Position numbers and translations under genes: made by a program. From Elusimicrobiota bacterium (GTDB lineage Bacteria; Elusimicrobiota; UBA8919): a DNA stretch of 33,966 nucleotides. The stretch spans positions 1 through 33,966 of the forward strand of contig JAZDKR010000052.1 of the NCBI GenBank assembly GCA_043802785.1. Direction: 5' to 3'. The notes under the pieces are model-generated. The model ran no database searches. It was not told the DNA's origin and worked only from the letters and a program-made list of their open reading frames with translations. Below are positions 12,010 through 27,791 of this stretch, in pieces (the first letter of the stretch is position 1; each line of letters opens with the position of its first letter).

Positions 12010-12288
12010 ATGTTTTTGTCGGGGATAACTACATATGAATGGGATTCAAAAAATATATCCCATATTTTGCAACACCAAGTAAGACCAGATGAAGTTGAAG
12101 AAGCATGTTATAATAATCCAGTTGTTCTTAAAACAAGAGGGAATTGTTATTTAGTGCTTGGTAGAAGCAATACAGGGAAATACTTATCTATTGTGGTTGC
12201 ACCAAAAGAAGAAGGCAAAACACGAGTTATAACAGCCAGAAATATGGACCACAAGGAAAGAAAACTTTTCACAAGAAAAAGGAAATAA
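12010..12288 (+). CDS. brnT: BrnT-like toxin (DUF497)
   Basis: YEWDSKN...H N-terminal signature, about 90 aa, followed 12 nt later by a BrnA-like gene. Confidence 0.65.
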   Translation: MFLSGITTYEWDSKNISHILQHQVRPDEVEEACYNNPVVLKTRGNCYLVLGRSNTGKYLSIVVAPKEEGKTRVITARNMDHKERKLFTRKRK

Positions 12289-13339: not shown

Positions 13340-13987
13340 ATGAAGATATTTATGATAGTTTTTTGTATATTGTTTTTTACATATTCGGTTGTGTTTGCGG
13401 CACATCCGTTAACAACGGATGACATCGGAATCGTTGAAATTGGCAAGTACGAATTGGAAGTTGGTTATGATAACTGCAAGAGAGAAAGTGAATTGCGAAA
13501 TCACTCCTGCGGGATTTCGCTGAAACACGGCATTACGGAAAAAATGGATGTTGGGATTTCATTTCCGTATCAGATAGAGCCGAAACCGGAGGAACCATTC
13601 GGAACTACTACGCTCGGCTTCAAATTTCTTTTATTGAAGGATATTTTTGCTTTAACCGTCAATAATGAACTCGGTTCAAGCGAATACTTTATCAACGGGA
13701 TTTTTACACGAGAGGTTCAGTCCATAACCATTCACGCAAATATCGGTTATGCGGTTTCCGGCGATGAAAACACGGAAGGCGAAATAATTCACAGTTCCGC
13801 GTTTGAATACCCGTTATCAAAAATAGATTTGGTCGGCGAAATTATCGGCGAAAAAATAGGGTTTCTGAATTACCTATTAGGCGTAAGATATAAAGTTGCC
13901 GATATTTCTTCGCTGAATTTTGCGTACGGGAACGGGTTCAGAAAAACGGATGAAAAAATTGCTTTTGGCTTTCATACGGAATTTTAA
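13340..13987 (+). CDS. putative outer-membrane beta-barrel protein (signal peptide, C-terminal Phe)
   Basis: Cleavable N-terminal signal peptide, alternating amphipathic strands, and an ...GFHTEF end typical of OMPs. Confidence 0.55.
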   Translation: MKIFMIVFCILFFTYSVVFAAHPLTTDDIGIVEIGKYELEVGYDNCKRESELRNHSCGISLKHGITEKMDVGISFPYQIEPKPEEPFGTTTLGFKFLLLKDIFALTVNNELGSSEYFINGIFTREVQSITIHANIGYAVSGDENTEGEIIHSSAFEYPLSKIDLVGEIIGEKIGFLNYLLGVRYKVADISSLNFAYGNGFRKTDEKIAFGFHTEF

Positions 13988-16245: not shown

Positions 16246-17045
16246 TTTTTGAATTAAACGATGTACATTTTTCATACTTAAGAAAATTTCCTGCACTATG
16301 CGGTATAGATATAAACATCAGGCAGGGAGAAAAAATAACTCTCATCGGTGCAAATGGTTCCGGAAAATCAACGCTTTTACATATATTTGACGGACTCATT
16401 TTTCCTGATAAAGGTACCATCAAAGTTTTTGGCAAAGAATTCAAGGAAAATGATTTTTGTAGCGAGGATTTCTCAAAAAATTTTAGAAAAAAAGTTGGGC
16501 TTGTTTTTCAGAATCCAGATATCCAGTTGTTTTGTCCGACGGTAAAAGAGGATATTGTTTTTGGACCGCTACATCTCGGAGTTGAAAAAGAGGAGATTCA
16601 AAAACGATTAGATGAACTTGTTCACCTGTTAGATATTAAAGATTTATTGGCTCGGTCACCCCACCATCTAAGCATAGGGGAAAAACGAAAGGTTGCCATT
16701 GCCTCAACTTTGATAATTCATCCTGATGTTTTAATTCTTGACGAACCAACTGCTGGATTAGACCCTTTAACGACGAGGCATATTATTGATTTACTTTTAC
16801 AAGAAAACCAATCCGGTAAAACTATCATTACGGCAACCCACGATTTGCATATTGTTGAGGAAATATCGGATACAGTTTATGTCTTTAGCCGTGAAAAAAA
16901 AATAATCAAATTTGGCAAACCTGATGAAATTCTAAAAGACGAACAATTGCTTCATGACCATAACCTAAGGCATATTCATAGCCACCGGCATAAAGACAAA
17001 ATTCACATTCATCCCCATCTGCATTTGGAACATCATATGGATTAG
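16233..17045 (+). CDS. cbiO: ECF transporter ATPase CbiO with a His-rich C-terminal tail
   Basis: Walker A GANGSGKST, signature LSIGEKRKV, Walker B ILILDEPT. Tail HDHNLRHIHSHRHKDKIHIHPHLHLEHHMD. Overlaps the cbiQ stop codon. Confidence 0.88.
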   Translation: MDNLIFELNDVHFSYLRKFPALCGIDINIRQGEKITLIGANGSGKSTLLHIFDGLIFPDKGTIKVFGKEFKENDFCSEDFSKNFRKKVGLVFQNPDIQLFCPTVKEDIVFGPLHLGVEKEEIQKRLDELVHLLDIKDLLARSPHHLSIGEKRKVAIASTLIIHPDVLILDEPTAGLDPLTTRHIIDLLLQENQSGKTIITATHDLHIVEEISDTVYVFSREKKIIKFGKPDEILKDEQLLHDHNLRHIHSHRHKDKIHIHPHLHLEHHMD

Positions 17046-17223
17046 TATATCTCTTTGAATATTGAAAGCCATCATTTCATATTTCAAGGTAGGTGTAGCA
17101 AATTAACATCTTGTTGTCAAGGGGTTTTTTGAAGATTTGCTTGAATTTGTAGCAGATTAGGATTTTCAATGTTGTCACCCCGAACGAAGATGTTGTGTCG
17201 TAATTGCCGTTTTTTGGTTTTGA

Positions 17224-17320
17224 CCGTCATTCCGTGCTTGACACGGAATCCATTCTTAGACGATAACACAACCGCTCCCTGCGTACTATCTGCAGGGACA
17301 AGTTTTGCAGAGGAATGACG
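17224..17320 (+). mobile_element. MITE-like element with TIRs CCGTCATTCC / GGAATGACG
   Basis: Same TIR type as 26717-26818. Internal hairpins ccgtgcttgacacgg and ccctgc...gcaggg. Confidence 0.5.
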
Positions 17321-17508
17321 AACTTTTTAACAATTATAACACGAAATGGAAGTGAAGGGTCTCGCTTCTCGTATAGCAACAAGATTCTTCGCTGAATTTA
17401 TTGCAGCAAAAATACTCGGATTTATTATTGATATAGCTGTCACACTGCTTAATGATTGGGTAGGAGAAAATTGGGTAGAAGTTTTAAACAAAAAAGGAGG
17501 CGACTAAA

Positions 17509-17688
17509 ATGTCTTTTTTTGACAATGTTAACGAATCATTAAAGCGAGAAATAAAGTATCAACTTTTGGGTGGTTCAAAAGGTGCTGGGCGTTTTTATGA
17601 CCCAGGCCGTGCATTGAGAGATGAAGTGAGAGAACAAAATAAAATTATGGAAAAACCACAATGTAAAGGCAAATATATTCCGTACTAA
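17509..17688 (+). CDS. candidate RiPP precursor / small protein, 59 aa, ending ...KPQCKGKYIPY
   Basis: Strong RBS AAGGAGG 8 nt upstream. It lies directly 5' of the RRE-radical SAM genes. C-terminal Tyr with a Cys 7 residues upstream. Confidence 0.4.
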   Translation: MSFFDNVNESLKREIKYQLLGGSKGAGRFYDPGRALRDEVREQNKIMEKPQCKGKYIPY

Positions 17689-17724
17689 ACTCATCCAACT
17701 TGAACTAACATTTGTTTAAGCAAA

Positions 17725-17943
17725 ATGGTCGTTACAAATTTATCTATGAGAGAATATTATATCAATAAATGGGTAGCATCAAGAATTTATGGTGGTAGGA
17801 CCGTAATCTATAATTTAAAAGACCACAACATTTTGACACTTGCCGGTACATCATCCGTTATTTGGCAGGAAATAAACAAACATAATAGTTTGCCCAATTT
17901 AACAGAAAAACTTGGTAAAGTTTTTAATGCTCCATTTCAATAG
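17725..17943 (+). CDS. PqqD/MftB-like RiPP recognition element (RRE), ending at an in-frame TAG inside the domain
   Basis: ...LTLAGTSSVIWQEINKHNSLPNLTEKLGKVFNAPFQ* aligns with the PqqD family. The last helix of the domain (...KEFLCSLAEVNLIEI) is encoded after the TAG in the same frame. Confidence 0.6.
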   Translation: MVVTNLSMREYYINKWVASRIYGGRTVIYNLKDHNILTLAGTSSVIWQEINKHNSLPNLTEKLGKVFNAPFQ

Positions 17944-18072
17944 ATAGAATCGGATACAAAAGAATTTTTATGTTCGTTAGCAGAAGTAAATCTTATCGAA
18001 ATAAGCAAATATAATTGCGACAATGTTTTATCAAAGATACCTATTGAAAAACAACAAAGCAATAAACAATTA

Positions 18073-19128
18073 TTGGACATAGAAAAAGAAATTTCAATAA
18101 AAACAGCAAATGAAAAACAACTTTTCAATGTTTTGTTTGAACTAACTTATAATTGTAATTTAAGTTGCGTTCACTGTTATGCTATAAATTGTAAAACAAA
18201 TCTGCCGTTAAATAATGAATTGACTACAGAGAAATGGAAATCCATAATTGATGAACTCTATGATGAAAATGCTTTTTTGATTACTTTTTCGGGTGGTGAC
18301 CCATTTTTAAGGAAAGATTTTTTGGAAATTTTTAGATATGCGAGAAAAAAAGATTTTGTGTGTAATATTTACACAAACGGAAATTTGATAACTGATGAAA
18401 TAATAAATGAAATTTGTGATTTATACCCGAGAAGTGTTCAAGTTAGCATTTACAGTGCAAGGGAAGAAATTCACGATGCAATAACTCAAGTAGGGGGTTC
18501 TTGGAGAAAATCCTTTGCTGTTCTGGAAAAATTACATTCTAAAGGTATTTTAATTGGATTCAAATGTCCTCTTATGAAATCTAATATAAAATATTATGAA
18601 GAAATGAAAAATCTTGCCAAACAATTTGATGCCTCGTTACAAATGGACTTAATGATATCAGCTAAAAATGATGGTAATTTGGAGCCAACAAACATAAGAG
18701 TGCAAGACGATCAAGATATTTTTAAAATAATAAGCGACCCGGAAATAGATGGTTATTATAGTGAATATAAAAGAGGTGAACAAATATCTGATAAAGACCC
18801 AGAAGCATCAATTTGCGGTGCTGGTGGAAACGGCTTTCGTATAAACCCTTACGGAGTGATAAATGTCTGCATTGCATTACAGTATCCTATAGGAAATGTG
18901 AATAATCAATCCGTTAAGGAAATATGGAACAATTCTAACTCGTTGAGCAATTTCAGAAAATTTAAGTGGAATGATTTAAAAGATTGTAAGAATTGTAAAA
19001 TATCAAGATATTGTATTTTTTGTCTTGGCGCATCCAAAAATGAAATGGGCGATATGTTAAAAAAGAATCCATATAACTGCAAAATCACATCCGCCAGGAC
19101 GAAATATTTTTCAAAAAAAAGGGGGTGA
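18073..19128 (+). CDS. radical SAM / SPASM-domain peptide maturase (MftC/PqqE-like)
   Basis: CNLSCVHC (Cx3Cx2C), FSGGDP, and a C-terminal Cys-rich SPASM domain. The frame is open back to 17944; the first in-frame start is a TTG at 18073 with no RBS. Confidence 0.85.
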   Translation: MDIEKEISIKTANEKQLFNVLFELTYNCNLSCVHCYAINCKTNLPLNNELTTEKWKSIIDELYDENAFLITFSGGDPFLRKDFLEIFRYARKKDFVCNIYTNGNLITDEIINEICDLYPRSVQVSIYSAREEIHDAITQVGGSWRKSFAVLEKLHSKGILIGFKCPLMKSNIKYYEEMKNLAKQFDASLQMDLMISAKNDGNLEPTNIRVQDDQDIFKIISDPEIDGYYSEYKRGEQISDKDPEASICGAGGNGFRINPYGVINVCIALQYPIGNVNNQSVKEIWNNSNSLSNFRKFKWNDLKDCKNCKISRYCIFCLGASKNEMGDMLKKNPYNCKITSARTKYFSKKRG

Positions 19129-19133
19129 TTTAA

Positions 19134-19235
19134 ATGAAGTATGAAAAACCCAAAATAGAAAAAGAAGCAAAGTTCATTGCTTCTACCGTGGCTGGTCCAC
19201 ATAGTGAGAATTGTTGCTGTCAGATGAGGTATTAG
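19134..19235 (+). CDS. candidate RiPP precursor peptide, 33 aa, ending ...SENCCCQMRY
   Basis: Good RBS (agggggtga) 7 nt upstream, immediately after the maturase stop codon. C-terminal Tyr with a CCC cluster. Confidence 0.35.
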   Translation: MKYEKPKIEKEAKFIASTVAGPHSENCCCQMRY

Positions 19236-19409
19236 TTACAGGTTGTAGGATATTGCCTATTCACATAGCGGTTTGGTAGAGATATGGAGAACACATTTTT
19301 TAGTGAAACTTTGTGAATCTGCCAAACCGCATGGTTGTATAAAATTGCCTGCTAAAATAAAAATTTTAAATGCTGTGGTTTTTCAGATAAGATAAGCGGA
19401 GGTGCTATA

Positions 19410-19775
19410 ATGTGCTGGAATGAAATATCTAAAAGAATAGATAATGAAATTAAAGTTGGAACAAAGATTCCCAAAACGGACGGTAAAAATAGAACTGTAA
19501 CAAAAAAAGTAGGCACACGTATATACATTCGTACAGGGATAAATACTCATGCTGAAAAATACACAACGAAAGAAATGATTCAATACGCTTACGATACAAT
19601 TAAATCTGGAAAATCTTTTACTTCAGCAGTATTAAAGTCAAAATTTCCCCAAGAATATAAACAGGGTAGTTGTGTTTTTTCGATGACTGGTGGAATTCTT
19701 GCAGTATTAGGATTAGCAAAATACACGCGAAAACGCGGATATACTTCGGTGAATAATAAGGACGGAGGAAAATAA
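19410..19775 (+). CDS. hypothetical protein, 121 aa
   Basis: RBS ggagg 7 nt upstream. No family recognised from the sequence. Confidence 0.45.
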   Translation: MCWNEISKRIDNEIKVGTKIPKTDGKNRTVTKKVGTRIYIRTGINTHAEKYTTKEMIQYAYDTIKSGKSFTSAVLKSKFPQEYKQGSCVFSMTGGILAVLGLAKYTRKRGYTSVNNKDGGK

Positions 19776-19813
19776 AATAGAGATTGAGATAATAGGATAC
19801 TGAGAGATTAAGA

Positions 19814-19888
19814 CAGATTGCTTCGGCGGAGTTTATTCTGCTTAAAGCGGAACCTCGCAACGACAAGTGGGGAACATTTCTCACAATG
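19814..19888 (+). mobile_element. degenerate, inverted MITE remnant (gagattgcttcg ... cctcgcaacgac ... cacaatgac)
   Basis: Reverse complement of the cgaagcaatctc box and TIR-like ends. Confidence 0.35.
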
Positions 19889-19900
19889 ACATCTTTAAGG

Positions 19901-19944
19901 CAATAATACAAAATGACTGGGTTGGTGACGGTCGTTTTTTTATT
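19901..19944 (+). repeat. left 44-bp direct repeat (caataatacaaaatgactgggttggtgacggtcgtttttttatt)
   Basis: 42 of 44 positions identical to 20725-20768. Each copy is preceded by a cRcaatgaca MITE end and ends in a T-run. Confidence 0.6.
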
Positions 19945-20039
19945 CGAAAAATACTTGACAAATTTTATAAAGTATGTTATCTTTATAGTAAAGAAGTAAA
20001 GAAGTAAAAAAGTAAGGAATTTGGAAAAGGAGGTTGTCC

Positions 20040-20327
20040 ATGCAAAAGATTATTATGGCTCATATGAGTTCTAAAGCGCAGGTCACTGTCCCTAAGGAAG
20101 CGAGACAGATTCTTGGAATAGGACAGTGTAACATTCCTATTGGCTTCATTGTTGAACCCGAAACGCATACCGTTAAACTTACCAGAGTTAATGTCACATC
20201 TGCAGATGAAGATTTCACAGAAGAAGAATATAAAAAACTTCGTAAACTCGCTAAAAAACCGGGTGGGAAAATTTTTACAACTGCCGCCGCAGTTATTAAA
20301 TATCATAAAAAACTCACTAAAAGTTAA
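20040..20327 (+). CDS. AbrB/MazE/SpoVT-type antitoxin
   Basis: ...SSKAQVTVPKEARQILGI... swapped-hairpin motif. RBS aaggagg present. Its TAA overlaps the next ATG, giving a TAATG junction. Confidence 0.55.
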   Translation: MQKIIMAHMSSKAQVTVPKEARQILGIGQCNIPIGFIVEPETHTVKLTRVNVTSADEDFTEEEYKKLRKLAKKPGGKIFTTAAAVIKYHKKLTKS

Positions 20328-20602
20328 TGAAATATTTATTTAGGCCCCGTTATATTCGCAGCATTAAAAAACTTGATAAAAGCCGAGCAGCAAATGTTCA
20401 GAAGACATTTGAATCGCTCGTTAGATTTTTCCAAACAGGTGAAAAACCATTTGGACTCGGGCTCAAGCAATTACGACGTGATATATGGGAAGTTCGTGCC
20501 GGATTACTTGACCGCATAATTTTTCGTCGCACAAAAAATACAGTTGAATTCATTATTGCAGGAACACATAATGAAATCAAAAGATACTTAAATTCTTTGT
20601 AA
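20327..20602 (+). CDS. RelE/ParE-superfamily toxin
   Basis: 91 aa with ...GLKQLRRDIWEVRAGLLDRIIFRR...FIIAGTHNEIKRYL, the RelE/ParE-like pattern. Translationally coupled to the antitoxin. Confidence 0.55.
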   Translation: MKYLFRPRYIRSIKKLDKSRAANVQKTFESLVRFFQTGEKPFGLGLKQLRRDIWEVRAGLLDRIIFRRTKNTVEFIIAGTHNEIKRYLNSL

Positions 20603-20654
20603 AATAATGTGAATAGGACAGAGATTGCTACAGTCGATCCCCGATTAAAAATTT

Positions 20655-20708
20655 CCCGAGTAGGTTCGCCTGGGGCGAAGGGGACAAGTTTATCGGCTTC
20701 GCAATGAC
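20655..20708 (+). mobile_element. MITE remnant: GTAG-ttcgcc-tggg-gcgaa hairpin plus right TIR TTCGCAATGAC
   Basis: Same boxes as the other family members. Confidence 0.4.
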
Positions 20709-20724
20709 AGGCAAAGATAAATTA

Positions 20725-20768
20725 CAATAATACAAAATGGCTGGGTTGGTGACGGTCATTTTTTTATT
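20725..20768 (+). repeat. right 44-bp direct repeat
   Basis: Copy of 19901-19944. The pair brackets the toxin-antitoxin module. Confidence 0.6.
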
Positions 20769-20808
20769 GTGTTTTTTGGGAAAATCTGTATAATTTCACA
20801 ATAAAGTT

Positions 20809-21669
20809 ATGGATTTACAATTTTATCTAAAAAACAAAAAATTGGTCGTTGATGAAGCACTGAAAAAGTATTTTCTGAAAAATGCAGATGAACCGCTTAT
20901 TATAAATACTGCGATGCGATACAGTATTTTTGCCGGTGGGAAGCGGTTGCGTCCGATTTTGTGCCTTGCCGCTTGTGAAATTTGCGGCGGAGTTGAAAAA
21001 AATGTTCTTCCAACCGCCTGTGCGATTGAAATGGTTCACACATATTCGCTTATTCACGATGACTTGCCTGCGATGGATAATGACGATGAACGTCGGGGAA
21101 AACTGACATCTCATAAAAAATTTGGCGAAGCGATTGCTATACTTGCCGGCGACGGGCTTTTAACAAAAGCGTTTGAAATTATTCATCCGAAGGTTGTAAA
21201 AGAAATTGCCGTTGCTGCTGGAACGAAAGGAATGGTTGGCGGGCAAGTGGTGGATATAGAAAGTGAAAAGTTAAAAGTTAAAAGTCAAAAGTTAAAAAAT
21301 GAACTTGTGTATATTCATGAACATAAGACGGCAAAAATGATAGAGGTTTCACTTAAAGCAGGTGCTGTGTTGTCCGATGCTCCCTCGGCAAAAATAAAGG
21401 CGATTTCAAATTATGGCAGAAAAATCGGTCTTGCGTTTCAAATTACAGACGACATTCTGGATATTATCGGCAACAAAAAAAAACTTGGCAAAAAAGGGTC
21501 GGATTTGAAAAATAAAAAATTGACCTATCCGTCAATCTATGGTATAGAAAAATCAAAAGAAAAAGCGGAGGCATTAATTAAGAGTGCAAAAAACAACCTA
21601 AAAATTTTTGGCAAAAAAGCGGATGTGTTTAATGAATTAGCCGACTATATAATCCAGAGGGATTTTTGA
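20809..21669 (+). CDS. polyprenyl diphosphate synthase (FPP/GGPP synthase family)
   Basis: First Asp-rich motif LIHDDLPAMDNDDERRG and second motif FQITDDILD. Confidence 0.9.
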   Translation: MDLQFYLKNKKLVVDEALKKYFLKNADEPLIINTAMRYSIFAGGKRLRPILCLAACEICGGVEKNVLPTACAIEMVHTYSLIHDDLPAMDNDDERRGKLTSHKKFGEAIAILAGDGLLTKAFEIIHPKVVKEIAVAAGTKGMVGGQVVDIESEKLKVKSQKLKNELVYIHEHKTAKMIEVSLKAGAVLSDAPSAKIKAISNYGRKIGLAFQITDDILDIIGNKKKLGKKGSDLKNKKLTYPSIYGIEKSKEKAEALIKSAKNNLKIFGKKADVFNELADYIIQRDF

Positions 21670-21826: not shown

Positions 21827-23539
21827 ATGGTAAAAAAAGTACCGTCGGATATTGAAATAGCGCAGGCAATTGAACTTAACCCGATAATTGATATTGCGGA
21901 AAAAATCGGTATCAAAAGTGATGAGTTGGAATTATACGGTAACTACAAAGCAAAAATAAAACTTGAAATTCTCCAACGGATAAAAAATAATCATCAAGCG
22001 AAATATATTGATGTAACTGCTATAACGCCTACACCACTCGGCGAGGGAAAAACTGTTACAACGATAGGGCTTTCACTCAGTCTATCAAAAATCGGAAAAA
22101 AAGTTATAACAACAATCAGACAGCCGTCGTTAGGTCCCGTGTTCGGAATAAAAGGCGGTGCTGCTGGTGGAGGTTATTCTCAGGTTTTACCGATGGAAGA
22201 TTTTAATCTGCATCTTACCGGTGACGTTCACGCTGTTTCAATTGCACATAACTTGTGTGCTGCATTCGTGGACAATTCTCTTCACAAAGGAAATAAACTC
22301 AATATGGATATGAACAACATATTGTGGCGAAGGGTTGTTGATGTTTCGGACAGAGCGTTAAGGAATATAAAAATAGGGCTTGGAACAAAAGAAGATGGTA
22401 TCCCCCGTGACTCAGGGTTTGATATATCTGTTGCATCCGAAGTTATGGCGATACTTGCGCTAACAACTTCGCTGAAGGATTTAAGAGAACGATTGGGAAG
22501 AATTGTTGTTGCATTTACTCCTGACGGTAACCCAGTCACTACTGAGGATTTGCAGGTTGCTGGCTCTATGGCTGTATTGTTAAGGGATGCTATTAAGCCG
22601 AATCTTCTGCAGACGACAGAACACACGGCTTGTTTCGTTCACGCTGGTCCTTTTGCGAACATCGCACATGGCAACAATTCAATTCTTGCCGACCTTATGG
22701 CAGTAAAACTTACCGATTATGTCGTTACGGAAAGTGGATTCGGTGCCGACTGCGGAATGGAAAAGTTTATGAATATAAAATGCAGATATTCAGGACTTAT
22801 TCCTAACTGCGTCGTTATGGTTTGCTCCATCCGTGCTCTGAAAATGCATTCGGGAAAATTTAATGTTGTTGCCGGCAGACCATTGGAAGAAGGACTGATT
22901 AAAGAAAACCTGACTGCTATTGCCGAAGGAATTTGTAATCTTGAAAAGCATATTGAAAACGCAAAGATGTTCGGTGTGCCAGTTGTGGTTGCAATAAATA
23001 AATTCTCAACAGATACGGATAAAGAGATAGAATTTGTCAGATTGAAGTCATTAGAAGCCGGCGCCGATGATGTTGCACTCTCTACGGTTTGGGAGAATGG
23101 TGGTGACGGTGGCAGGGAATTAGCAGAAGCAGTTGTAAACGCCTGCGAGAAAAAATCTTCAAACGAATTCCGGTTTTTATATCCACTTGATATGCCGATA
23201 AAAGAAAAAATTCAAACAATTGCAACAAAAATATACGGAGCGAAGGATGTTCAGTACACACCGCAGGCAGAAGAAAAAATTAAACTTTACACCAAACTTG
23301 GCTGGGCTCAACTTCCGCTCTGTATGGCGAAGACGCATCTTTCATTATCACACGAGCCGACATTAAAAGGAAGACCAACAGGATTCACATTACCCGTTAA
23401 AGATATAAGGGCATCTATTGGTGCGGGTTTTTTGTATCCTTTGTGCGGCGAGATGAGAACAATGCCAGGGCTTCCATCTGTTCCCGCAGGCACAAAAGTT
23501 GATATTGATAAAGACGGAAAAGTCGTAGGATTGTTTTAA
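21827..23539 (+). CDS. fhs: formate--tetrahydrofolate ligase
   Basis: PTPLGEGKTVTTIGL P-loop region and full-length match to the FTHFS family. RBS ggagg present. Confidence 0.95.
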   Translation: MVKKVPSDIEIAQAIELNPIIDIAEKIGIKSDELELYGNYKAKIKLEILQRIKNNHQAKYIDVTAITPTPLGEGKTVTTIGLSLSLSKIGKKVITTIRQPSLGPVFGIKGGAAGGGYSQVLPMEDFNLHLTGDVHAVSIAHNLCAAFVDNSLHKGNKLNMDMNNILWRRVVDVSDRALRNIKIGLGTKEDGIPRDSGFDISVASEVMAILALTTSLKDLRERLGRIVVAFTPDGNPVTTEDLQVAGSMAVLLRDAIKPNLLQTTEHTACFVHAGPFANIAHGNNSILADLMAVKLTDYVVTESGFGADCGMEKFMNIKCRYSGLIPNCVVMVCSIRALKMHSGKFNVVAGRPLEEGLIKENLTAIAEGICNLEKHIENAKMFGVPVVVAINKFSTDTDKEIEFVRLKSLEAGADDVALSTVWENGGDGGRELAEAVVNACEKKSSNEFRFLYPLDMPIKEKIQTIATKIYGAKDVQYTPQAEEKIKLYTKLGWAQLPLCMAKTHLSLSHEPTLKGRPTGFTLPVKDIRASIGAGFLYPLCGEMRTMPGLPSVPAGTKVDIDKDGKVVGLF

Positions 23540-23763: not shown

Positions 23764-25881
23764 ATGGATTGGACAAAATTTGAATTAAAACCAAAAGAAG
23801 AAATTATTGCTCTCCTGCAAGGGGTCAATAATATCTTTGTTATCAGTTGCAAAAAATGTTTTAAGGAACTTAATCCTTCGGATGACATTACCGGTTCTGA
23901 TGAATGTCCTGCGGTTTCCAAAATTGTTGAGGAGGCGAATAAAAAAATTGTTGGTTGCATTGATGTAGATTTTCTTTGCAATAAATTATTAACAGAAAAA
24001 CTTATCCCGAAAGATTTTCAATCGGCAGAAGTTATATGTGTTATTTCCTGTGGAATAGGTGTTCAAACCGTTGCAAATTTAATTAAAGATAAGCCGGTGT
24101 ATTGCCTGACAAATTCCGTATTTAAGACGGGACATAGCGGTGAGCACGGAATGGCTTTGGCTGAAGAAAGGTGCGGGGCCTGTGGGGATTGCGTATTAGA
24201 TATTACCGAGGGAATATGTCCTGTAACTAATTGTGCCAAGCAATTACGCAATGGTTCCTGCGGCGGCGCAAAAAATGGTAAATGCGAGGTAAAAAATTCA
24301 GATGGTAGCCAGCGTGACTGTGCTTGGGAAAAAATATACAAACGCTTGAATGCAGTAGTATCGGGGTCTCCTCGCTTGAATGCACGAGAAAAAACAATCG
24401 CGGGAGAACAATCCGTTGAAATTAAGGACCATTCCAAACCGGATTTTGATACAATAAATTCTTGTAGTATTGATATTCGCAATAAACGACAGCAGAGTTT
24501 TTATGGTGGTCTTTATCCAAAAGAGAATAAAAAACAAACTGAAAATAAACCAATTCAACCTTTTCCCGAACCCAAATTTCTAATTATTCCACTATCACAA
24601 CACATCGGCAAAATTTGTGAACCGCTCGTGAAAGTTGGCGATAGAGTAAAAGTTGGACAGAAAATCGGCGATGTATCATCCGAATTTTTGGGTGTACCTG
24701 TCCATTCCAGTGTGAGTGGAAAAGTCATCGAGATTGAACTTAGAAACCATCCGTTAAGTATTGAAAAAGTTCTGGCAATAACCATTGAGTCAGATGGTAA
24801 AAATGAAGTTCAAAAAAGCGAAACATTATGTATTGATGAAAATTGGCAACCCGAGCAGGCGATTAAAATGATTCGCGAGGCAGGAATTGTGGGATTAGGT
24901 GGCGCACAATTTCCTACTTACGCAAAACTGTGTCCACCGAAAAATAAACCGATAGATACTGTTATCCTTAACGGTGCTGAATGTGAACCATATTTGACTG
25001 CGGATTATCGTGTTATGCTGGAAAAGCCGGAAGAATTATTAGCAGGTTTGCGTGCGATAATGAAAATCTTAAATGTTGAAAATGGTGTTATTGCGATTGA
25101 AGATAATAAAGAAGACGCGATAGAAAGGTTAAATAATGTCATTGCGAGTCGCGAAGCAACGAAGCAATCTCAAACAAATAAAATCAAAGTTGTAGAACTC
25201 AAAACAAAATATCCGCAGGGTTCGGAACGGATGCTAATCAAAAAAATCTTAAATAGAGATGTCCCGCTTGGAGGATTGCCCTACGATGTCGGCGTAATAG
25301 TGAACAATGTAAGCACGGCGGTAGCGGTCTACGAAGCATTATATAAAGGCATATCTTTGATAAAGCGAGTAATTACCGTCACGGGCGATAACTGTGTCCG
25401 ACCTGGTAATTACGAGATAAAAATCGGTACACTATTTCAGGATATCATGGAGTATTGTTTTTCTCTTCCCTACCCCTTCACCTGCGGTGAACCTACTTGG
25501 CTATCCCCTACCCCCTATTCACTAAAGATGGGCGGTCCGATGATGGGTATATTACAGAATAATCTTGATGTTCCGGTAATAAAAGGAACTACGGGAATTT
25601 TGGTGTCTGCCAAACCAGACATACAATCTGATTTATCAAGAAGTTGTATCAAATGCGGTCGTTGTGTAGATGCCTGTCCGATGGAATTGCTCCCTTTATA
25701 CTATGCTTTTTATGTTGACCAAGTAGGTTCGCCAGTGGCGAAAAAACAGCAGTGGCAAGAAACAAAACAGTTAGGAGTTATGAACTGTATAGAGTGCGGA
25801 TGTTGTGATGATGTATGCCCCGCAAAAAGGTCAATAGTTGGTGCTGTTAAAATAGCAAAAAAGGCAGTTCATAGTTCATAG
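23764..25881 (+). CDS. RnfC-like NADH-binding FeS subunit of methylene-THF reductase with an N-terminal MetV-like (MTHFR C-terminal-type) zinc-ribbon domain
   Basis: N-terminal ...CGACGDC...CP...CGGAKNGKCEV..., paralogous to the metV gene at 26025. Central RnfC/NuoF-like core (GLGGAQFPT..., LNGAECEPY...). Two C-terminal CxxCxxCxxxCP ferredoxin motifs. Confidence 0.8.
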   Translation: MDWTKFELKPKEEIIALLQGVNNIFVISCKKCFKELNPSDDITGSDECPAVSKIVEEANKKIVGCIDVDFLCNKLLTEKLIPKDFQSAEVICVISCGIGVQTVANLIKDKPVYCLTNSVFKTGHSGEHGMALAEERCGACGDCVLDITEGICPVTNCAKQLRNGSCGGAKNGKCEVKNSDGSQRDCAWEKIYKRLNAVVSGSPRLNAREKTIAGEQSVEIKDHSKPDFDTINSCSIDIRNKRQQSFYGGLYPKENKKQTENKPIQPFPEPKFLIIPLSQHIGKICEPLVKVGDRVKVGQKIGDVSSEFLGVPVHSSVSGKVIEIELRNHPLSIEKVLAITIESDGKNEVQKSETLCIDENWQPEQAIKMIREAGIVGLGGAQFPTYAKLCPPKNKPIDTVILNGAECEPYLTADYRVMLEKPEELLAGLRAIMKILNVENGVIAIEDNKEDAIERLNNVIASREATKQSQTNKIKVVELKTKYPQGSERMLIKKILNRDVPLGGLPYDVGVIVNNVSTAVAVYEALYKGISLIKRVITVTGDNCVRPGNYEIKIGTLFQDIMEYCFSLPYPFTCGEPTWLSPTPYSLKMGGPMMGILQNNLDVPVIKGTTGILVSAKPDIQSDLSRSCIKCGRCVDACPMELLPLYYAFYVDQVGSPVAKKQQWQETKQLGVMNCIECGCCDDVCPAKRSIVGAVKIAKKAVHSS

Positions 25882-25943
25882 TTCATAGTTCGTAGTAGAG
25901 GCGGATGACGGATAACGAATAACAGATTTTGATTTTATTAGTT

Positions 25944-25965
25944 GTAGTTGCCCAATTTATTGGGC
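25944..25965 (+). repeat. REP-like unit with compensatory stem (GTAGTTGC-gcccaa-ttta-ttgggc)
   Basis: Single copy of the 23551-type unit. The stem differs at two positions on each arm, and pairing is preserved. Confidence 0.55.
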
Positions 25966-26024
25966 GCCGTTGACCTACGCAATACGCAATACGTTTTTAT
26001 CTGTTTTGTATCGCCCTTAAAAAA

Positions 26025-26663
26025 ATGCTAACAATCAAACTTAAACCCGTAGATAATTTGCGGTCATATCTAACAGAAAAAAATCTGATAATACGATGCC
26101 TCGGTTGCCGCGAAGTTCTATTCCCGGAAGAACAGGTGAACAATTTTAAGGAGGGACTGTCCCCGCAGGGGACTGTCCCATATGATATTGACGATATTGC
26201 AACCGATTATTTGTGTAATCCTGACTATACCCAGACGCGGCTGAAATTGTGGCAGAAGAAAATTGACGAAGCGACAAGTATAATAATTTTTTCATGCGGG
26301 GTTGGTGTGCAAGTTGTATCTTCGTTGATGAATAGACATACTTATGCCGGGGCTGATACTGTTCATCTCAATGGTTTTCAGGGTTTAACACCTACAGAAT
26401 ACGATTGTGATCTTTGCGGTGATTGCCTTTTAAATTATACCGGTGGACTTTGTCCTATAACTGCCTGCTCAAAATCGTTGCTTAATGGTTGTTGCGGCGG
26501 TGCCAAAAACGGTAAGTGCGAAGTTAATAAGGAACTTGATTGCGGTTGGGAGAAAATTTATAATCGGCTAAAGGAATCCAGTAAAGTTGTCCGAACTGAC
26601 TCCCTTGGAGAAACAACTTCAACGACTATAAAACTGCGAGATTATTCAAAAACAATACCGTAA
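26025..26663 (+). CDS. metV: MetV-like zinc-ribbon subunit of methylene-THF reductase
   Basis: ...CDLCGDC...CP...CGGAKNGKCEV... core, sitting directly upstream of metF. Confidence 0.7.
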   Translation: MLTIKLKPVDNLRSYLTEKNLIIRCLGCREVLFPEEQVNNFKEGLSPQGTVPYDIDDIATDYLCNPDYTQTRLKLWQKKIDEATSIIIFSCGVGVQVVSSLMNRHTYAGADTVHLNGFQGLTPTEYDCDLCGDCLLNYTGGLCPITACSKSLLNGCCGGAKNGKCEVNKELDCGWEKIYNRLKESSKVVRTDSLGETTSTTIKLRDYSKTIP

Positions 26664-26716
26664 AACAGCAGTAAAGTAGTTGGCAGTGGTGTGGTTGGCA
26701 GTGGGCAGGAACATGC

Positions 26717-26818
26717 CGTCATTCCTGCGAAGGCAGGAATCCAGTGTCGTTTTCTTTTCTGGATTCCCGATTTGGCCTGTCCCCGAAAGTAGTAGTCGGG
26801 GAGCACTCGGGAATGACG
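26717..26818 (+). mobile_element. MITE-like element with TIRs CGTCATTCC / GGAATGACG
   Basis: Same type as 17224. Carries the internal hairpins ggaatccag...ctggattcc and ccccgaaagtagtagtcgggg. Confidence 0.5.
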
Positions 26819-26912
26819 ACATAAGGGCGGTTAGCCAACGAACGTCCCCCAATCGCTAACCACAAACGAAACCTCTTTTGGAAAAAGAGGAATATTAACG
26901 ACGGAGAAAAAC

Positions 26913-27791
26913 ATGAAACTTACGGAACTGTTTGCTAATGGAAAATTTGTTATTACTTCGGAAATTGGTCCACCGAAAGGTTGGCAGATTGAGAAGTGTC
27001 TGAATGAAGCGGAACATCTCAAAGATAAAGTGGATGCTATAAATGTTACTGATAACCAATCTTCAGTAATGCGGTTTGGTTCACTTGCAACCTGTCATTT
27101 TTTGAAAGACAGGAATATTGAGCCGGTATTTCAAGTTGTCTGCCGCGACAGAAACAGGATTGCTCTCCAATCGGATATTTTAAGTGCCGCTGCTTTTGGT
27201 ATTGAAAACTTGCTTTTGTTGACCGGTGACCACACAACACTCGGCGACCATCCACAGGCGAGGCCGGTGTTTGATTTGGACTCCGTTTCCTTAATTTATG
27301 CAGTAAAAAAGTTGGAGGAAGGTGTTGACCTCGCAGGCAATAAACTTGAAGGCGAGCCACCGAAATTTGCAATTGGTGCGGTTGTGTCACCGTGCTCTGA
27401 CCCTGTGGAGCCGCAACTTATAAAAATGGAGAAAAAAATAAAAGCAGGCGCGGAATTTTTTCAGACACAGGCAATTTACGAAGTTGAAAAATTTGTAAAG
27501 TTTATGGAAAAGGCGAAACAATTCGGAGCACCTGTTATGGCAGGGATAGTAATCTTAAAATCCGTCGGTATGGCAAAATATATGAATGAAAATGTTGCCG
27601 GCGTTTATGTTCCGGACAATTTAATTGAAGAGTTGAAAAAAGATAAAGAGAAGACAAAATCTGGGCAAACAGGAATAGAAATTGCTACACGACTTATAAA
27701 AGAACTCAAGCCGTACTGTCAGGGTGTTCACATAATGCCGCTCGGCTGGGACGATAAAGTTCCAAAAATTCTTGAACTCGCAGGGTTGTAA
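26913..27791 (+). CDS. metF: 5,10-methylenetetrahydrofolate reductase
   Basis: ...FVITSEIGPPKG..., ...VDAINVTDN... and ...LLLTGD... hallmark motifs. RBS ggag present. Confidence 0.9.
   Translation: MKLTELFANGKFVITSEIGPPKGWQIEKCLNEAEHLKDKVDAINVTDNQSSVMRFGSLATCHFLKDRNIEPVFQVVCRDRNRIALQSDILSAAAFGIENLLLLTGDHTTLGDHPQARPVFDLDSVSLIYAVKKLEEGVDLAGNKLEGEPPKFAIGAVVSPCSDPVEPQLIKMEKKIKAGAEFFQTQAIYEVEKFVKFMEKAKQFGAPVMAGIVILKSVGMAKYMNENVAGVYVPDNLIEELKKDKEKTKSGQTGIEIATRLIKELKPYCQGVHIMPLGWDDKVPKILELAGL

What the first reader, a model, noticed from the sequence alone, without database searches (positions are those of the whole stretch)
17346..19235. Mycofactocin-like RiPP cassette: Tyr-terminated peptides, a PqqD-like RRE and a radical SAM/SPASM maturase
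The gene order is a small peptide (17509-17688, ending CKGKYIPY), then a PqqD/MftB-like RRE (17725-), a radical SAM-SPASM enzyme (to 19128), and a second small peptide (19134-19235, ending CCCQMRY). This mirrors mftA-mftB-mftC, where MftC oxidatively decarboxylates and cross-links the C-terminal Val-Tyr of MftA (...CGVY). Both candidate peptides here end in Tyr with Cys a few residues upstream, and both have strong ribosome-binding sites. Unlike mycofactocin, the host is a low-GC Wood-Ljungdahl-type anaerobe. No mftD/E/F-like genes follow; the next gene is an unrecognisable 121-aa ORF. This may therefore be an undescribed Tyr/Cys-modifying RiPP or peptide-derived cofactor system. A further 53-aa amphipathic ORF (17346-17507, ending ...NKKGGD) precedes the cluster but has no RBS.
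Basis: partly seen in the sequence, partly recalled or inferred. Interest (0 to 1): 0.85.

Follow-up and report, generated by a model that had tools for sequence, protein, structure and literature searches.

The report
Damaged two-gene radical-SAM peptide cassette
The window holds a real but ordinary peptide-modifying gene pair, a radical-SAM enzyme followed by its small cysteine-containing substrate peptide; it is not mycofactocin-like, and this copy carries a premature stop and other lesions.

Summary
The ORFs are at the stated coordinates, but the layout was misread. The "PqqD ORF" (17725-17943) and the "rSAM ORF" (to 19128) are one reading frame: an RRE-radical SAM-SPASM maturase cut by an in-frame TAG at 17941-17943. 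Four orthologues (57-66% identity) are uninterrupted, and the three aligned have Q/E/K at that position.

The only conserved partner is the downstream peptide (19134-19235). It belongs to a family of at least 21 precursors sharing a [YF]-E-K-P leader and a Cys-x7-Cys-Gly core. In all 14 loci inspected, the peptide gene lies directly after such a maturase. No protease, exporter or other shared neighbour is present.

The upstream 59-aa "Tyr peptide" has no homologue among 1.84 billion representative proteins. The 53- and 121-aa ORFs have no counterpart in related loci. A C-terminal Tyr is not conserved. MftC scores 128 bits against a 265-bit cut-off, and no mftD/E/F genes are present.

The nearest solved relatives are the thioether synthases SkfB and CteB. 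The best reading is therefore a sacti/ranthipeptide-like cross-linked peptide from an unnamed family.

The window copy looks damaged. It has the TAG, a +1 frameshift at the maturase 3' end, and changes at two near-invariant core positions (Cys1 to Gly; Gly to Gln).

The parts
17725..17943 (+). 5' part of the maturase gene: the RRE (PqqD-like) strands and first two helices, ended by an in-frame TAG (17941-17943)
   Evidence: Same frame as 18073-19128. The Pfam PqqD match covers residues 26-91 across the stop. Orthologues have CAA/GAA/AAA at this codon. In the AF2 model of orthologue P0002 the position falls at the start of RRE helix 3, residues 68-84.
17944..19128 (+). Remainder of the maturase frame: RRE helix 3, linker, radical SAM core and SPASM domain. 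The first in-frame start codon after the TAG is the TTG at 18073.
   Evidence: 57-66% identity to the uninterrupted 467-474-aa proteins P0002-P0004 over the whole read-through frame. Radical_SAM E = 7.8e-21 and SPASM E = 1.7e-11. ORF list.
18154..18177 (+). CxxxCxxC motif (C144, C148, C151) for the SAM-binding [4Fe-4S] cluster
   Evidence: Invariant columns in alignment A1.
18814..19080 (+). SPASM region with seven conserved Cys (C364, C382, C421, C424, C430, C433, C452) for the auxiliary Fe-S clusters
   Evidence: Invariant columns in A1. Pfam PF13186 covers residues 364-425.
19113..19120 (+). A8 homopolymer carrying a +1 frameshift relative to orthologues. It shortens the maturase C-terminus by about 5 residues.
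   Evidence: Deleting one A restores ...YFSKKGGDLNEV*, matching the orthologues' ...YFERKGGDRDEV*.
19119..19129 (+). Shine-Dalgarno region of the precursor gene (AAGGGGGTGAT; AAGGAGGTGAT in orthologues), overlapping the maturase 3' end
   Evidence: Conserved block in DNA alignment A2.
19134..19184 (+). Precursor peptide leader, MKYEKPKIEKEAKFIAS
   Evidence: Identical in amino acids to L001 and L170, with only three synonymous DNA differences from L001. The [YF]-E-K-P motif is shared by 21 family members.
19185..19235 (+). Precursor core TVAGPHSENCCCQMRY plus stop. It deviates from the family at Cys1 (Gly, GGT at 19194-19196) and at the Gly after Cys2 (Gln, 19221-19223), and is 2 residues shorter at the C-terminus.
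   Evidence: Alignment A6: the window is the only sequence lacking C21 and G30. TGT to GGT is visible in A2.

Best explanation
Positions 17725-19235 hold a two-gene RiPP cassette. Gene 1 encodes a single three-domain maturase: an N-terminal PqqD-like recognition element (RRE), a radical SAM core, and a SPASM domain with two auxiliary Fe-S clusters. Gene 2, directly downstream, encodes a 33-36-residue precursor.

Proposed mechanism (inferred). The RRE binds the conserved leader (K-[YF]-E-K-P-x-[ILM]). The enzyme cleaves SAM to a 5'-deoxyadenosyl radical, which abstracts a hydrogen from a core residue. The radical is captured by one of the two conserved cysteines (Cys-x7-Cys-Gly) to form intramolecular thioether ring(s), as in sactipeptides and ranthipeptides.

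Shown: the domain architecture, the cluster-binding cysteines, and the strict maturase-peptide pairing across 14 loci. Inferred: leader-RRE binding, and the thioether chemistry with its regiochemistry.

The cassette carries no protease, exporter or immunity gene, and the core is strongly conserved within subfamilies. The product is therefore more likely a signalling or intracellular peptide (SCIFF-like) than a diversifying bacteriocin.

In this particular genome the cassette is probably non-functional as assembled. A TAG removes RRE helix 3 and uncouples the catalytic domains from translation. A homopolymer frameshift clips the C-terminus. The peptide has lost two near-invariant core residues.
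For: One frame with an internal TAG. PqqD, Radical_SAM and SPASM domains. Uninterrupted orthologues with Q/E/K at the TAG column. TAG is an ordinary stop in the window: 8 of 35 + strand ORFs checked end in it, including cbiN and cbiO.

The downstream peptide is conserved in L001-L003 and L170, with HMM E = 1e-24 to 1e-25. 18 further precursors fall into four subfamilies. In every locus examined the peptide gene follows an RRE-rSAM-SPASM gene: L084, L090, L024, L164-L166, L167-L169.

The neighbours differ completely between lineages. Window-orthologue DNA homology spans only 17742-19199.

The best PDB sequence match is SkfB at 1.3e-30, then CteB and PqqE. The best structural matches of a pLDDT-88 model are CteB, SkfB, SuiB and PqqE. 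By my reading of the alignments, the residue after CxxxCxxC (Tyr), the one before the GGD/E motif (Ser/Thr), the one before TNG (Phe) and the Ser of the next strand match SkfB (Y, T, F, S). [quoted passage not shown]

Lesions.
Against: No chemistry was measured. RRE-rSAM-SPASM enzymes with this fold also make C-C and C-O links (SuiB, PqqE, MftC), so the fold does not fix the reaction. No named sacti/ranthisynthase HMM reaches its cut-off: StsB 109/625, AlbA 67/850, SkfB 68/300.

The core lacks an obvious conserved acceptor residue. A conserved aromatic residue (Y/F) four positions after Cys2 could instead be the reactive site.

The 'pseudogene' reading depends on the assembly being correct. 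Apart from the TAG and the homopolymer shift, the maturase shows no excess of changes at conserved columns: 2 unique deviations, similar to the other sequences. The lesions are therefore either recent or sequencing/assembly errors. RiPP cores are often variable, so the altered core alone is weak evidence of decay.
Confidence: 0.6

Rival explanations
1. Mycofactocin-like system. A separate RRE presents a Tyr-terminated peptide to an MftC-like enzyme, which decarboxylates and cross-links the C-terminal Tyr to make a peptide-derived redox cofactor.
For: MftC (TIGR03962) is the first- or second-best named NCBIfam hit for the window enzyme and for several relatives, at 108-128 bits. The window peptide ends in Tyr. 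An aromatic residue four positions after Cys2 is conserved in most family members. Cores are strongly conserved and no exporter is present, as expected for a cofactor.
Against: The MftC score is under half the 265-bit cut-off and ties with AhbD, NirJ2 and PqqE. PMC10288494 documents that full-length similarity to MftC misled for StsB, which proved to be a sactisynthase (abstract). The RRE is a fused domain; the apparent split is a nonsense codon inside the domain. In all 20 other family peptides the aromatic residue is followed by 2-7 more residues (or is absent in P0042), so there is no free Tyr carboxylate to remove. The 59-aa upstream peptide is an orphan. No MftA model hit was found. No mftD/E/F-type genes occur in any locus.
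Confidence: 0.04
2. Same two-gene RiPP family, but the enzyme makes a non-thioether modification. Examples would be a carbon-carbon or carbon-oxygen cross-link at the conserved aromatic residue (cyclophane, streptide or ryptide type) or an epimerisation. The two cysteines would then form a disulfide or bind metal.
For: A conserved Y/F after CG-x-x, followed by R or S-P-K-K, in three of the four subfamilies. SuiB (Lys-Trp C-C) and PqqE (C-C) are among the top structural matches. WgkB (NF050035) is among the sub-threshold hits at about 105 bits.
Against: The aromatic residue is missing in subfamily D (CGIRPNTN). The most conserved core features are the two Cys and the Gly. The best sequence match among solved structures is the thioether synthase SkfB, by 14 orders of magnitude in E-value over the next.
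Confidence: 0.22
3. The window cassette is intact and functional. The TAG and the A8 run would be assembly or sequencing errors or minority-strain variants, or the TAG would be read through. The unusual CCC core would be a genuine new variant substrate.
For: Outside the two lesions the 1.4-kb frame is open and as well conserved as its orthologues. The leader is under purifying selection, with 3 synonymous and 0 non-synonymous differences from L001. The Shine-Dalgarno sequence is kept. One lesion lies in a homopolymer, a classic error site.
Against: Four independent deviations from otherwise conserved features are concentrated in one 1.5-kb cassette. TAG is used as a normal terminator by housekeeping genes in the same contig. 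The window holds no tRNA, though this says nothing about the rest of the genome. The submitter's annotation also splits the gene: P0001 is 351 aa, starting at the TTG.
Confidence: 0.25
4. The enzyme is a non-RiPP SPASM protein (an AhbD/NirJ-type haem-pathway enzyme or an anaerobic sulfatase maturase), and the small ORFs are chance.
For: AhbD is the top NCBIfam hit for the window protein at 136.7 bits, and NirJ2 scores 116. A JGI source calls one distant homologue 'AdoMet-dependent heme synthase'.
Against: These scores are far below the 500-bit cut-offs. A fused RRE is present. The downstream peptide is co-conserved in 14 of 14 loci. No haem or sulfatase genes are adjacent.
Confidence: 0.02

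Closest known systems
Sactipeptide synthases with a fused RRE (SkfB/SkfA of Bacillus subtilis; AlbA, StsB)
   Same: N-terminal RRE plus radical SAM plus a C-terminal auxiliary-cluster domain. The substrate is a small Cys-containing peptide encoded next to the enzyme. SkfB is the best PDB sequence match at 1.3e-30. It shares four active-site-proximal residues (Y, S/T, F, S) by my reading.
   Different: The peptide gene lies downstream, not upstream. There is a full SPASM domain rather than the Twitch domain of SkfB. No cyclase, protease, ABC-transporter or immunity genes are present. The SkfB, AlbA and StsB HMMs are all far below cut-off. Only two conserved Cys, and no hairpin-type Cys/acceptor pattern.
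SCIFF / ranthipeptide systems (CteA-CteB, Tte1186a, freyrasin PapA-PapB)
   Same: A minimal peptide-plus-one-maturase cassette embedded among housekeeping genes of anaerobes, without an exporter. CteB is the top structural match. The core is conserved rather than diversifying. SCIFFs are widespread in Clostridia and have been linked to quorum sensing (PMC8326336).
   Different: Two conserved Cys rather than six. A different leader. The opposite gene order. The peptides match no NCBIfam model at all, so none for SCIFF. 14-18% identity to CteB.
Mycofactocin MftA-MftB-MftC
   Same: A rSAM-SPASM enzyme with a PqqD-type RRE acting on a small peptide. MftC is among the best-scoring named families.
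   Different: The RRE is fused. The peptide lies downstream. There is no C-terminal Val-Tyr. No mftD/E/F genes. The score is under half the family cut-off.

Membership tests
Mycofactocin system | The maturase reaches the MftC equivalog model TIGR03962 (cut-off 265 bits) | tested here: not met
   127.8 bits for the window protein and 108-126 bits for orthologues and relatives.
Mycofactocin system | An MftA-type precursor whose C-terminal Val-Tyr is the substrate (MftC decarboxylates the Tyr and links it to the adjacent Val; PMC8326336) | tested here: not met
   No NCBIfam hit for any peptide. The family peptides end in YRT, YRS, YRM, YRTNS, SPKKGS or PNTN; only the window copy ends in Tyr, preceded by Arg.
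Mycofactocin system | A discrete MftB chaperone gene | tested here: not met
   The RRE is the N-terminal domain of the maturase in all relatives. The window 'gene' is a fragment ended by a nonsense codon inside the domain.
Mycofactocin system | Accompanying mftD, mftE and mftF genes | tested here: not met
   None in the window and none in related loci.
RRE-dependent radical SAM/SPASM RiPP maturases (general class) | A CxxxCxxC radical SAM motif | tested here: met
   C144, C148 and C151 are invariant. PF04055 E = 7.8e-21.
RRE-dependent radical SAM/SPASM RiPP maturases (general class) | A SPASM domain with seven Cys for two auxiliary clusters | tested here: met
   PF13186 E = 1.7e-11. C364, C382, C421, C424, C430, C433 and C452 are invariant.
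RRE-dependent radical SAM/SPASM RiPP maturases (general class) | A PqqD-like RRE (three strands plus three helices), fused or adjacent | tested here: met
   PF05402 at 33 bits against a cut-off of 23.4, read across the TAG. The AF2 model of P0002 shows four short strands followed by three helices in residues 7-84, with pLDDT above 90. In the window the domain is truncated before helix 3.
RRE-dependent radical SAM/SPASM RiPP maturases (general class) | A co-conserved adjacent precursor peptide | tested here: met
   14 of 14 loci, the window included.
Sactipeptide / ranthipeptide (thioether RiPPs) | A Cys S to acceptor C-alpha, C-beta or C-gamma thioether in the product | not testable with these tools
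   Requires MS/MS or NMR of the modified peptide.
Sactipeptide / ranthipeptide (thioether RiPPs) | Membership of a named synthase family (StsB NF045574, AlbA NF012164, SkfB TIGR04403) | tested here: not met
   109/625, 67/850 and 68/300 bits. Results are similar for relatives.
SCIFF | A six-Cys, roughly 45-residue precursor that matches the SCIFF peptide model | tested here: not met
   No NCBIfam hit at E <= 10 for nine family peptides. Only two conserved Cys.
AhbD/NirJ haem-pathway rSAM | Reaches the TIGR04545 or TIGR04055 cut-off (500 bits) | tested here: not met
   136.7 and 116.3 bits.

The most novel reading that the evidence does not exclude
The K-[YF]-E-K-P leader / Cys-x7-Cys-Gly core peptides and their RRE-fused rSAM-SPASM partners form an undescribed cross-phylum RiPP family, found in an Elusimicrobiota MAG, spore-forming Clostridia, Lachnoclostridium and unidentified metagenome lineages. 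The family travels as a bare two-gene cassette. Its strongly conserved cores and its lack of export, protease and immunity genes would point to an intracellular or signalling molecule, possibly with a cross-link not yet catalogued.
Probability: 0.3. Interest if true: 0.6.

Novelty: new member of a known kind. Interest (0 to 1): 0.33.

Why it matters
If the family is characterised, it would add one more small cross-linked peptide type to the rSAM-RiPP catalogue. Like SCIFF, it sits among housekeeping genes without an exporter, so it may act as a signal or an internal factor rather than an antibiotic. It is fairly common in gut-type Clostridia: individual precursors were seen on 16-53 contigs.

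For the scan itself there are three lessons. A sub-threshold resemblance to MftC is generic among SPASM enzymes. Small ORFs need co-conservation checks before being called precursors. Adjacent same-frame ORFs should be checked for an internal stop codon.

The window copy itself is probably inactive and of limited interest.

Tried and rejected
(1) TAG recoding or pyrrolysine. Rejected as unlikely: TAG terminates 8 of 35 + strand ORFs checked in the window, and the window holds no tRNA. The rest of the genome could not be examined.

(2) Close relatives in GTDB species genomes and JGI metagenomes. None exceeds 37% identity. The only orthologues are four short Logan/ENA contigs.

(3) An exact look-up of the annotated 351-aa protein for its contig context found nothing on record.

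It was repeated with a 54-aa member first.

(5) NCBIfam at E <= 10 returned no hit for nine family peptides, so the precursor has no named family.

(6) A literature search for core and leader strings (CGITYR, NCPTTS, KYCGIP, MKYEKPKI and others) gave only irrelevant matches. The supplementary data of PMC10288494 are not held.

(7) Plasmid and phage collections hold nothing closer than 33.5% identity.

(8) A search for shared flanking genes between the window and orthologous loci found none. This included BrnT, which sits upstream of the maturase in L001 and L170.

(9) Pfam, NCBIfam and PHROGs searches on the 53-, 59- and 121-aa ORFs found no families.

(10) Rfam found no RNA family in the window.

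(11) The promoter/terminator scan of 16900-20900 was uninformative in this AT-rich DNA.
Full report
**What is in the sequence**

Translating 17725-19131 in one frame gives a single 467-codon reading frame broken once, by a TAG at 17941-17943.

With the stop masked, Pfam finds three domains:
- PqqD, residues 26-91, spanning the stop (33 bits against a cut-off of 23.4);
- Radical_SAM, residues 139-294 (E = 7.8e-21);
- SPASM, residues 364-425 (E = 1.7e-11).

The window is a contig of an Elusimicrobiota MAG. The depositor annotated only the 351-aa piece that starts at the TTG at 18073 (P0001).

The closest relatives, P0002, P0003 and P0004, are uninterrupted proteins of 467-474 aa at 66, 65 and 57% identity, all carrying the PqqD domain. 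At the TAG column they have Gln, Glu and Lys, encoded by CAA, GAA and AAA. The stop is therefore one base change away.

TAG is an ordinary terminator in this contig. 8 of 35 + strand ORFs checked end in it, including cbiN and cbiO. The window holds no tRNA gene. Recoding is therefore unlikely.

An AlphaFold2 model of P0002 (mean pLDDT 88, pTM 0.90) shows the RRE as a set of short strands (residues 7-37) followed by helices at 38-47, 53-64 and 68-84. The stop falls at the start of the third helix. From established knowledge of RRE structures, that helix forms the leader-binding groove together with strand 3.

The first start codon in frame after the stop is the TTG at 18073. I see no Shine-Dalgarno sequence before it. 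As assembled, the RRE is truncated and the catalytic domains are unlikely to be translated.

**Which small ORF is the substrate**

Each of four orthologous contigs has a 36-aa ORF overlapping or abutting the maturase 3' end (L001-L003; L170):
- MKYEKPKIEKEAKFIASTTMACPKYSEAVCGSGYRT
- ...STTMGCPKTMVSTCGTGYRT
- ...SSTLACPSTNVDYCGINYRS
- MKYKKPVIRKEANYVAASTMGCPQQSEQTCGINYRM

An HMM built from these peptides and the window peptide scores the ORFs of L001-L003 at E = 1e-24 to 1e-25 among all small ORFs of the 163 loci fetched by then.

The window leader MKYEKPKIEKEAKFIAS is identical to that of L001, with three synonymous and no non-synonymous DNA differences. The Shine-Dalgarno block is conserved.

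A profile search of 5.8 billion proteins found 18 further precursors, falling into these groups:
- another window-type member (P0040);
- a Clostridial group, M(L)KFEMPLLICEDIYSQSMANCCTKLNEHLCGITYRTNS;
- a metagenome group, ...RKRYEKPxIRSEKEARELSFNCPTTS[IV]KYCGIP[FY]SPKKGS;
- a Lachnoclostridium form (P0042; the same peptide as in L024).

In every locus I could inspect, the peptide gene directly follows an RRE-rSAM-SPASM gene. These loci are L084, L090 and L024, L164-L166 and L167-L169. The maturases of these loci are among the window enzyme's nearest relatives after the orthologues (about 30% identity).

In the 21-sequence alignment the leader Pro and the second Cys are invariant. A leader Glu, the first Cys and the Gly after the second Cys are at least 90% conserved. 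The family signature is K-[YF]-E-K-P-x-[ILM] ... Cys-x7-Cys-Gly (x9 in the Lachnoclostridium form).

The other small ORFs are not conserved:
- The upstream 59-aa ORF has no homologue but itself among 1.84 billion representative proteins searched exhaustively.
- The 53-, 59- and 121-aa ORFs have no tblastn match in the 170 related loci.
- None of the three has a Pfam, NCBIfam or PHROGs hit.

DNA similarity between the window and the orthologous contigs covers only 17742-19199, and no flank is shared. The conserved unit is exactly two genes.

**Context**

Upstream lie nikR and cbiMNQO. Downstream lie a putative PrlF/AbrB-like and RelE-like pair (weak matches only), a polyprenyl diphosphate synthase, fhs, and an MTHFR/MetV/RnfC-like set.

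In other lineages the cassette sits in quite different places. In one it lies between efp (with a divergent HTH gene) and the spoIIIA operon. In another it lies between uppS and a methyltransferase and leuS. In a third it lies after a BrnT toxin gene. No locus has a protease, exporter or immunity gene.

Cassette GC differs from flank GC in almost every locus. Examples are 0.31 against 0.38 here, 0.31 against 0.42-0.44 in L001 and L170, and 0.45 against 0.58 in L090 and L164. This is consistent with horizontal spread of a bare two-gene module.

**What it most likely does**

No NCBIfam model reaches its cut-off for the window enzyme, its orthologues or the other subfamilies. Scores against cut-offs are:

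| Model | Score (bits) | Cut-off (bits) |
|---|---|---|
| MftC | 108-128 | 265 |
| AhbD | 117-139 | 500 |
| NirJ2 | 116-138 | 500 |
| PqqE | 96-115 | 381 |
| StsB | 95-109 | 625 |
| AlbA | 67-98 | 850 |

. This is generic SPASM similarity.

Precord et al. (PMC10288494) showed that StsB resembles MftC more than any other characterised enzyme over its full length, yet makes sactionine bonds. A sub-threshold MftC-like score therefore carries little information.

Among solved structures, a profile of the family matches the sactisynthase SkfB best (1.3e-30). CteB (2e-16) and PqqE (5e-16) follow. The structural neighbours of the model are CteB, SkfB, SuiB and PqqE, all of them three-domain RiPP maturases.

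[quoted passage not shown] They are Tyr after CxxxCxxC, Ser/Thr before the GGD/E motif, Phe before TNG, and Ser in the next strand. These equal SkfB (Y, T, F, S) and differ from PqqE (S, S, I, S) at two positions. This is my own approximate application of the method, not the paper's scoring.

The most conserved core residues are two cysteines. I therefore favour leader-guided, radical-mediated thioether formation. I hold that at roughly 55-60%, with a non-thioether cross-link at the conserved aromatic residue as the main alternative.

Cores are nearly invariant within subfamilies, and export and immunity genes are absent. This resembles SCIFF, which is widespread in Clostridia and has been linked to quorum sensing (PMC8326336), more than it resembles a bacteriocin.

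**State of the window copy**

Four deviations from otherwise conserved features fall within 1.5 kb:
1. the TAG in the RRE;
2. an A8 run at 19113-19120 that is +1 relative to orthologues; deleting one A restores ...YFSKKGGDLNEV*, against ...YFERKGGDRDEV* in the orthologues;
3. Cys1 replaced by Gly (TGT to GGT);
4. the Gly after Cys2 replaced by Gln, plus a C-terminus two residues shorter. The window is the only one of 21 sequences deviating at either conserved column.

Outside these lesions the maturase is no more divergent at conserved columns than its relatives. The damage is therefore either recent or partly artefactual. Only read mapping can decide.

The C-terminal Tyr that prompted the mycofactocin idea arises from this truncation. 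It aligns with the internal Y/F of the family.

**Verdict**

The mycofactocin analogy, the two-peptide layout and the separate RRE gene are not supported.

The locus is a probably inactivated member of an unnamed but conventional class: an RRE-fused rSAM-SPASM maturase with a downstream Cys-containing precursor. It is a new member of a known kind. The interest is modest (0.33) and lies in the family rather than in this copy.

Noticed in passing
window 4666, 10904, 15282, 15358(-), 19854(-), 19880(-), 20698(-), 25138, 27802, 27905(-), 32589(-): A short intergenic repeat with core GTCATTGCGAG occurs 11 times (at most 1 mismatch), against 0.27 expected by chance. Copies often sit just after stop codons, and some form inverted pairs (15282/15358, 27802/27905). 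Copies bracket the putative toxin-antitoxin pair at 20034-20602. It looks like a REP/MITE-like element of this genome.
   Followed up: partly
window 17640-17688: The orphan 59-aa ORF ends in ...KIMEKPQCKGKYIPY. This contains an E-K-P tripeptide followed by Cys, faintly echoing the family leader motif [YF]-E-K-P. It is probably chance in A-rich DNA, but it could be a remnant of a second, degraded precursor.
   Followed up: no
window 17346-17688: The 53-aa and 59-aa ORFs are arranged as if translationally coupled (TAA at 17505-17507, ATG at 17509, GGAGG 9 nt upstream). The 59-aa ORF has no homologue anywhere. Neither ORF has a match in related loci, and the 53-aa ORF is not in the protein collection. 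Whether either is a real gene is open.
   Followed up: partly
window 19410-19775: A 121-aa ORF (annotated by NCBI as hypothetical, MFH0948308.1) with a good promoter-like site (19382-19411) and ribosome-binding site. It has no Pfam, NCBIfam or PHROGs family and no counterpart next to orthologous cassettes.
   Followed up: partly
window 20034-20602 and 12010-12288: Putative toxin-antitoxin modules lie near the cassette. One is a PrlF/AbrB-like and RelE-like overlapping pair (20034-20327 and 20327-20602; weak hits only). The other is a BrnT toxin gene at 12010-12288. In orthologous contigs L001 and L170 a BrnT gene lies immediately upstream of the maturase.
   Followed up: partly
window 23764-27791: A 705-aa fusion protein (MTHFR C-terminal-like DUF5981, RnfC_N, Nuo51 FMN-binding and 4Fe-4S domains) is followed by a MetV-like gene (26025-26663) and MTHFR (26913-27791), just downstream of fhs (21827-23539). 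This looks like a methyl-branch Wood-Ljungdahl module with an unusual electron-input subunit, in an Elusimicrobiota MAG.
   Followed up: no
L164-L166, 5365-8150: In spore-forming Clostridia the homologous two-gene cassette (445-aa maturase plus the 39-aa peptide MLKFEMPLL...CGITYRTNS) sits directly upstream of the spoIIIA operon. A divergent HTH_3 regulator lies on its other side. This hints at sporulation-linked expression.
   Followed up: no
L005, L014, L028, L035, L040, L087, L108, L113, L116, L125 (small ORFs listed): Many more distant rSAM-SPASM loci carry a nearby small ORF with the same K-[YF]-x-K-P-x-[ILV] leader motif but unrelated Cys-containing cores. The leader motif appears to be shared by a much wider set of rSAM-modified peptides than the Cys-x7-Cys-Gly family.
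   Followed up: partly
window 13340-13987: A 215-aa ORF between nikR and cbiM, overlapping the annotated cbiM start, has no Pfam, NCBIfam or PHROGs family.
   Followed up: no
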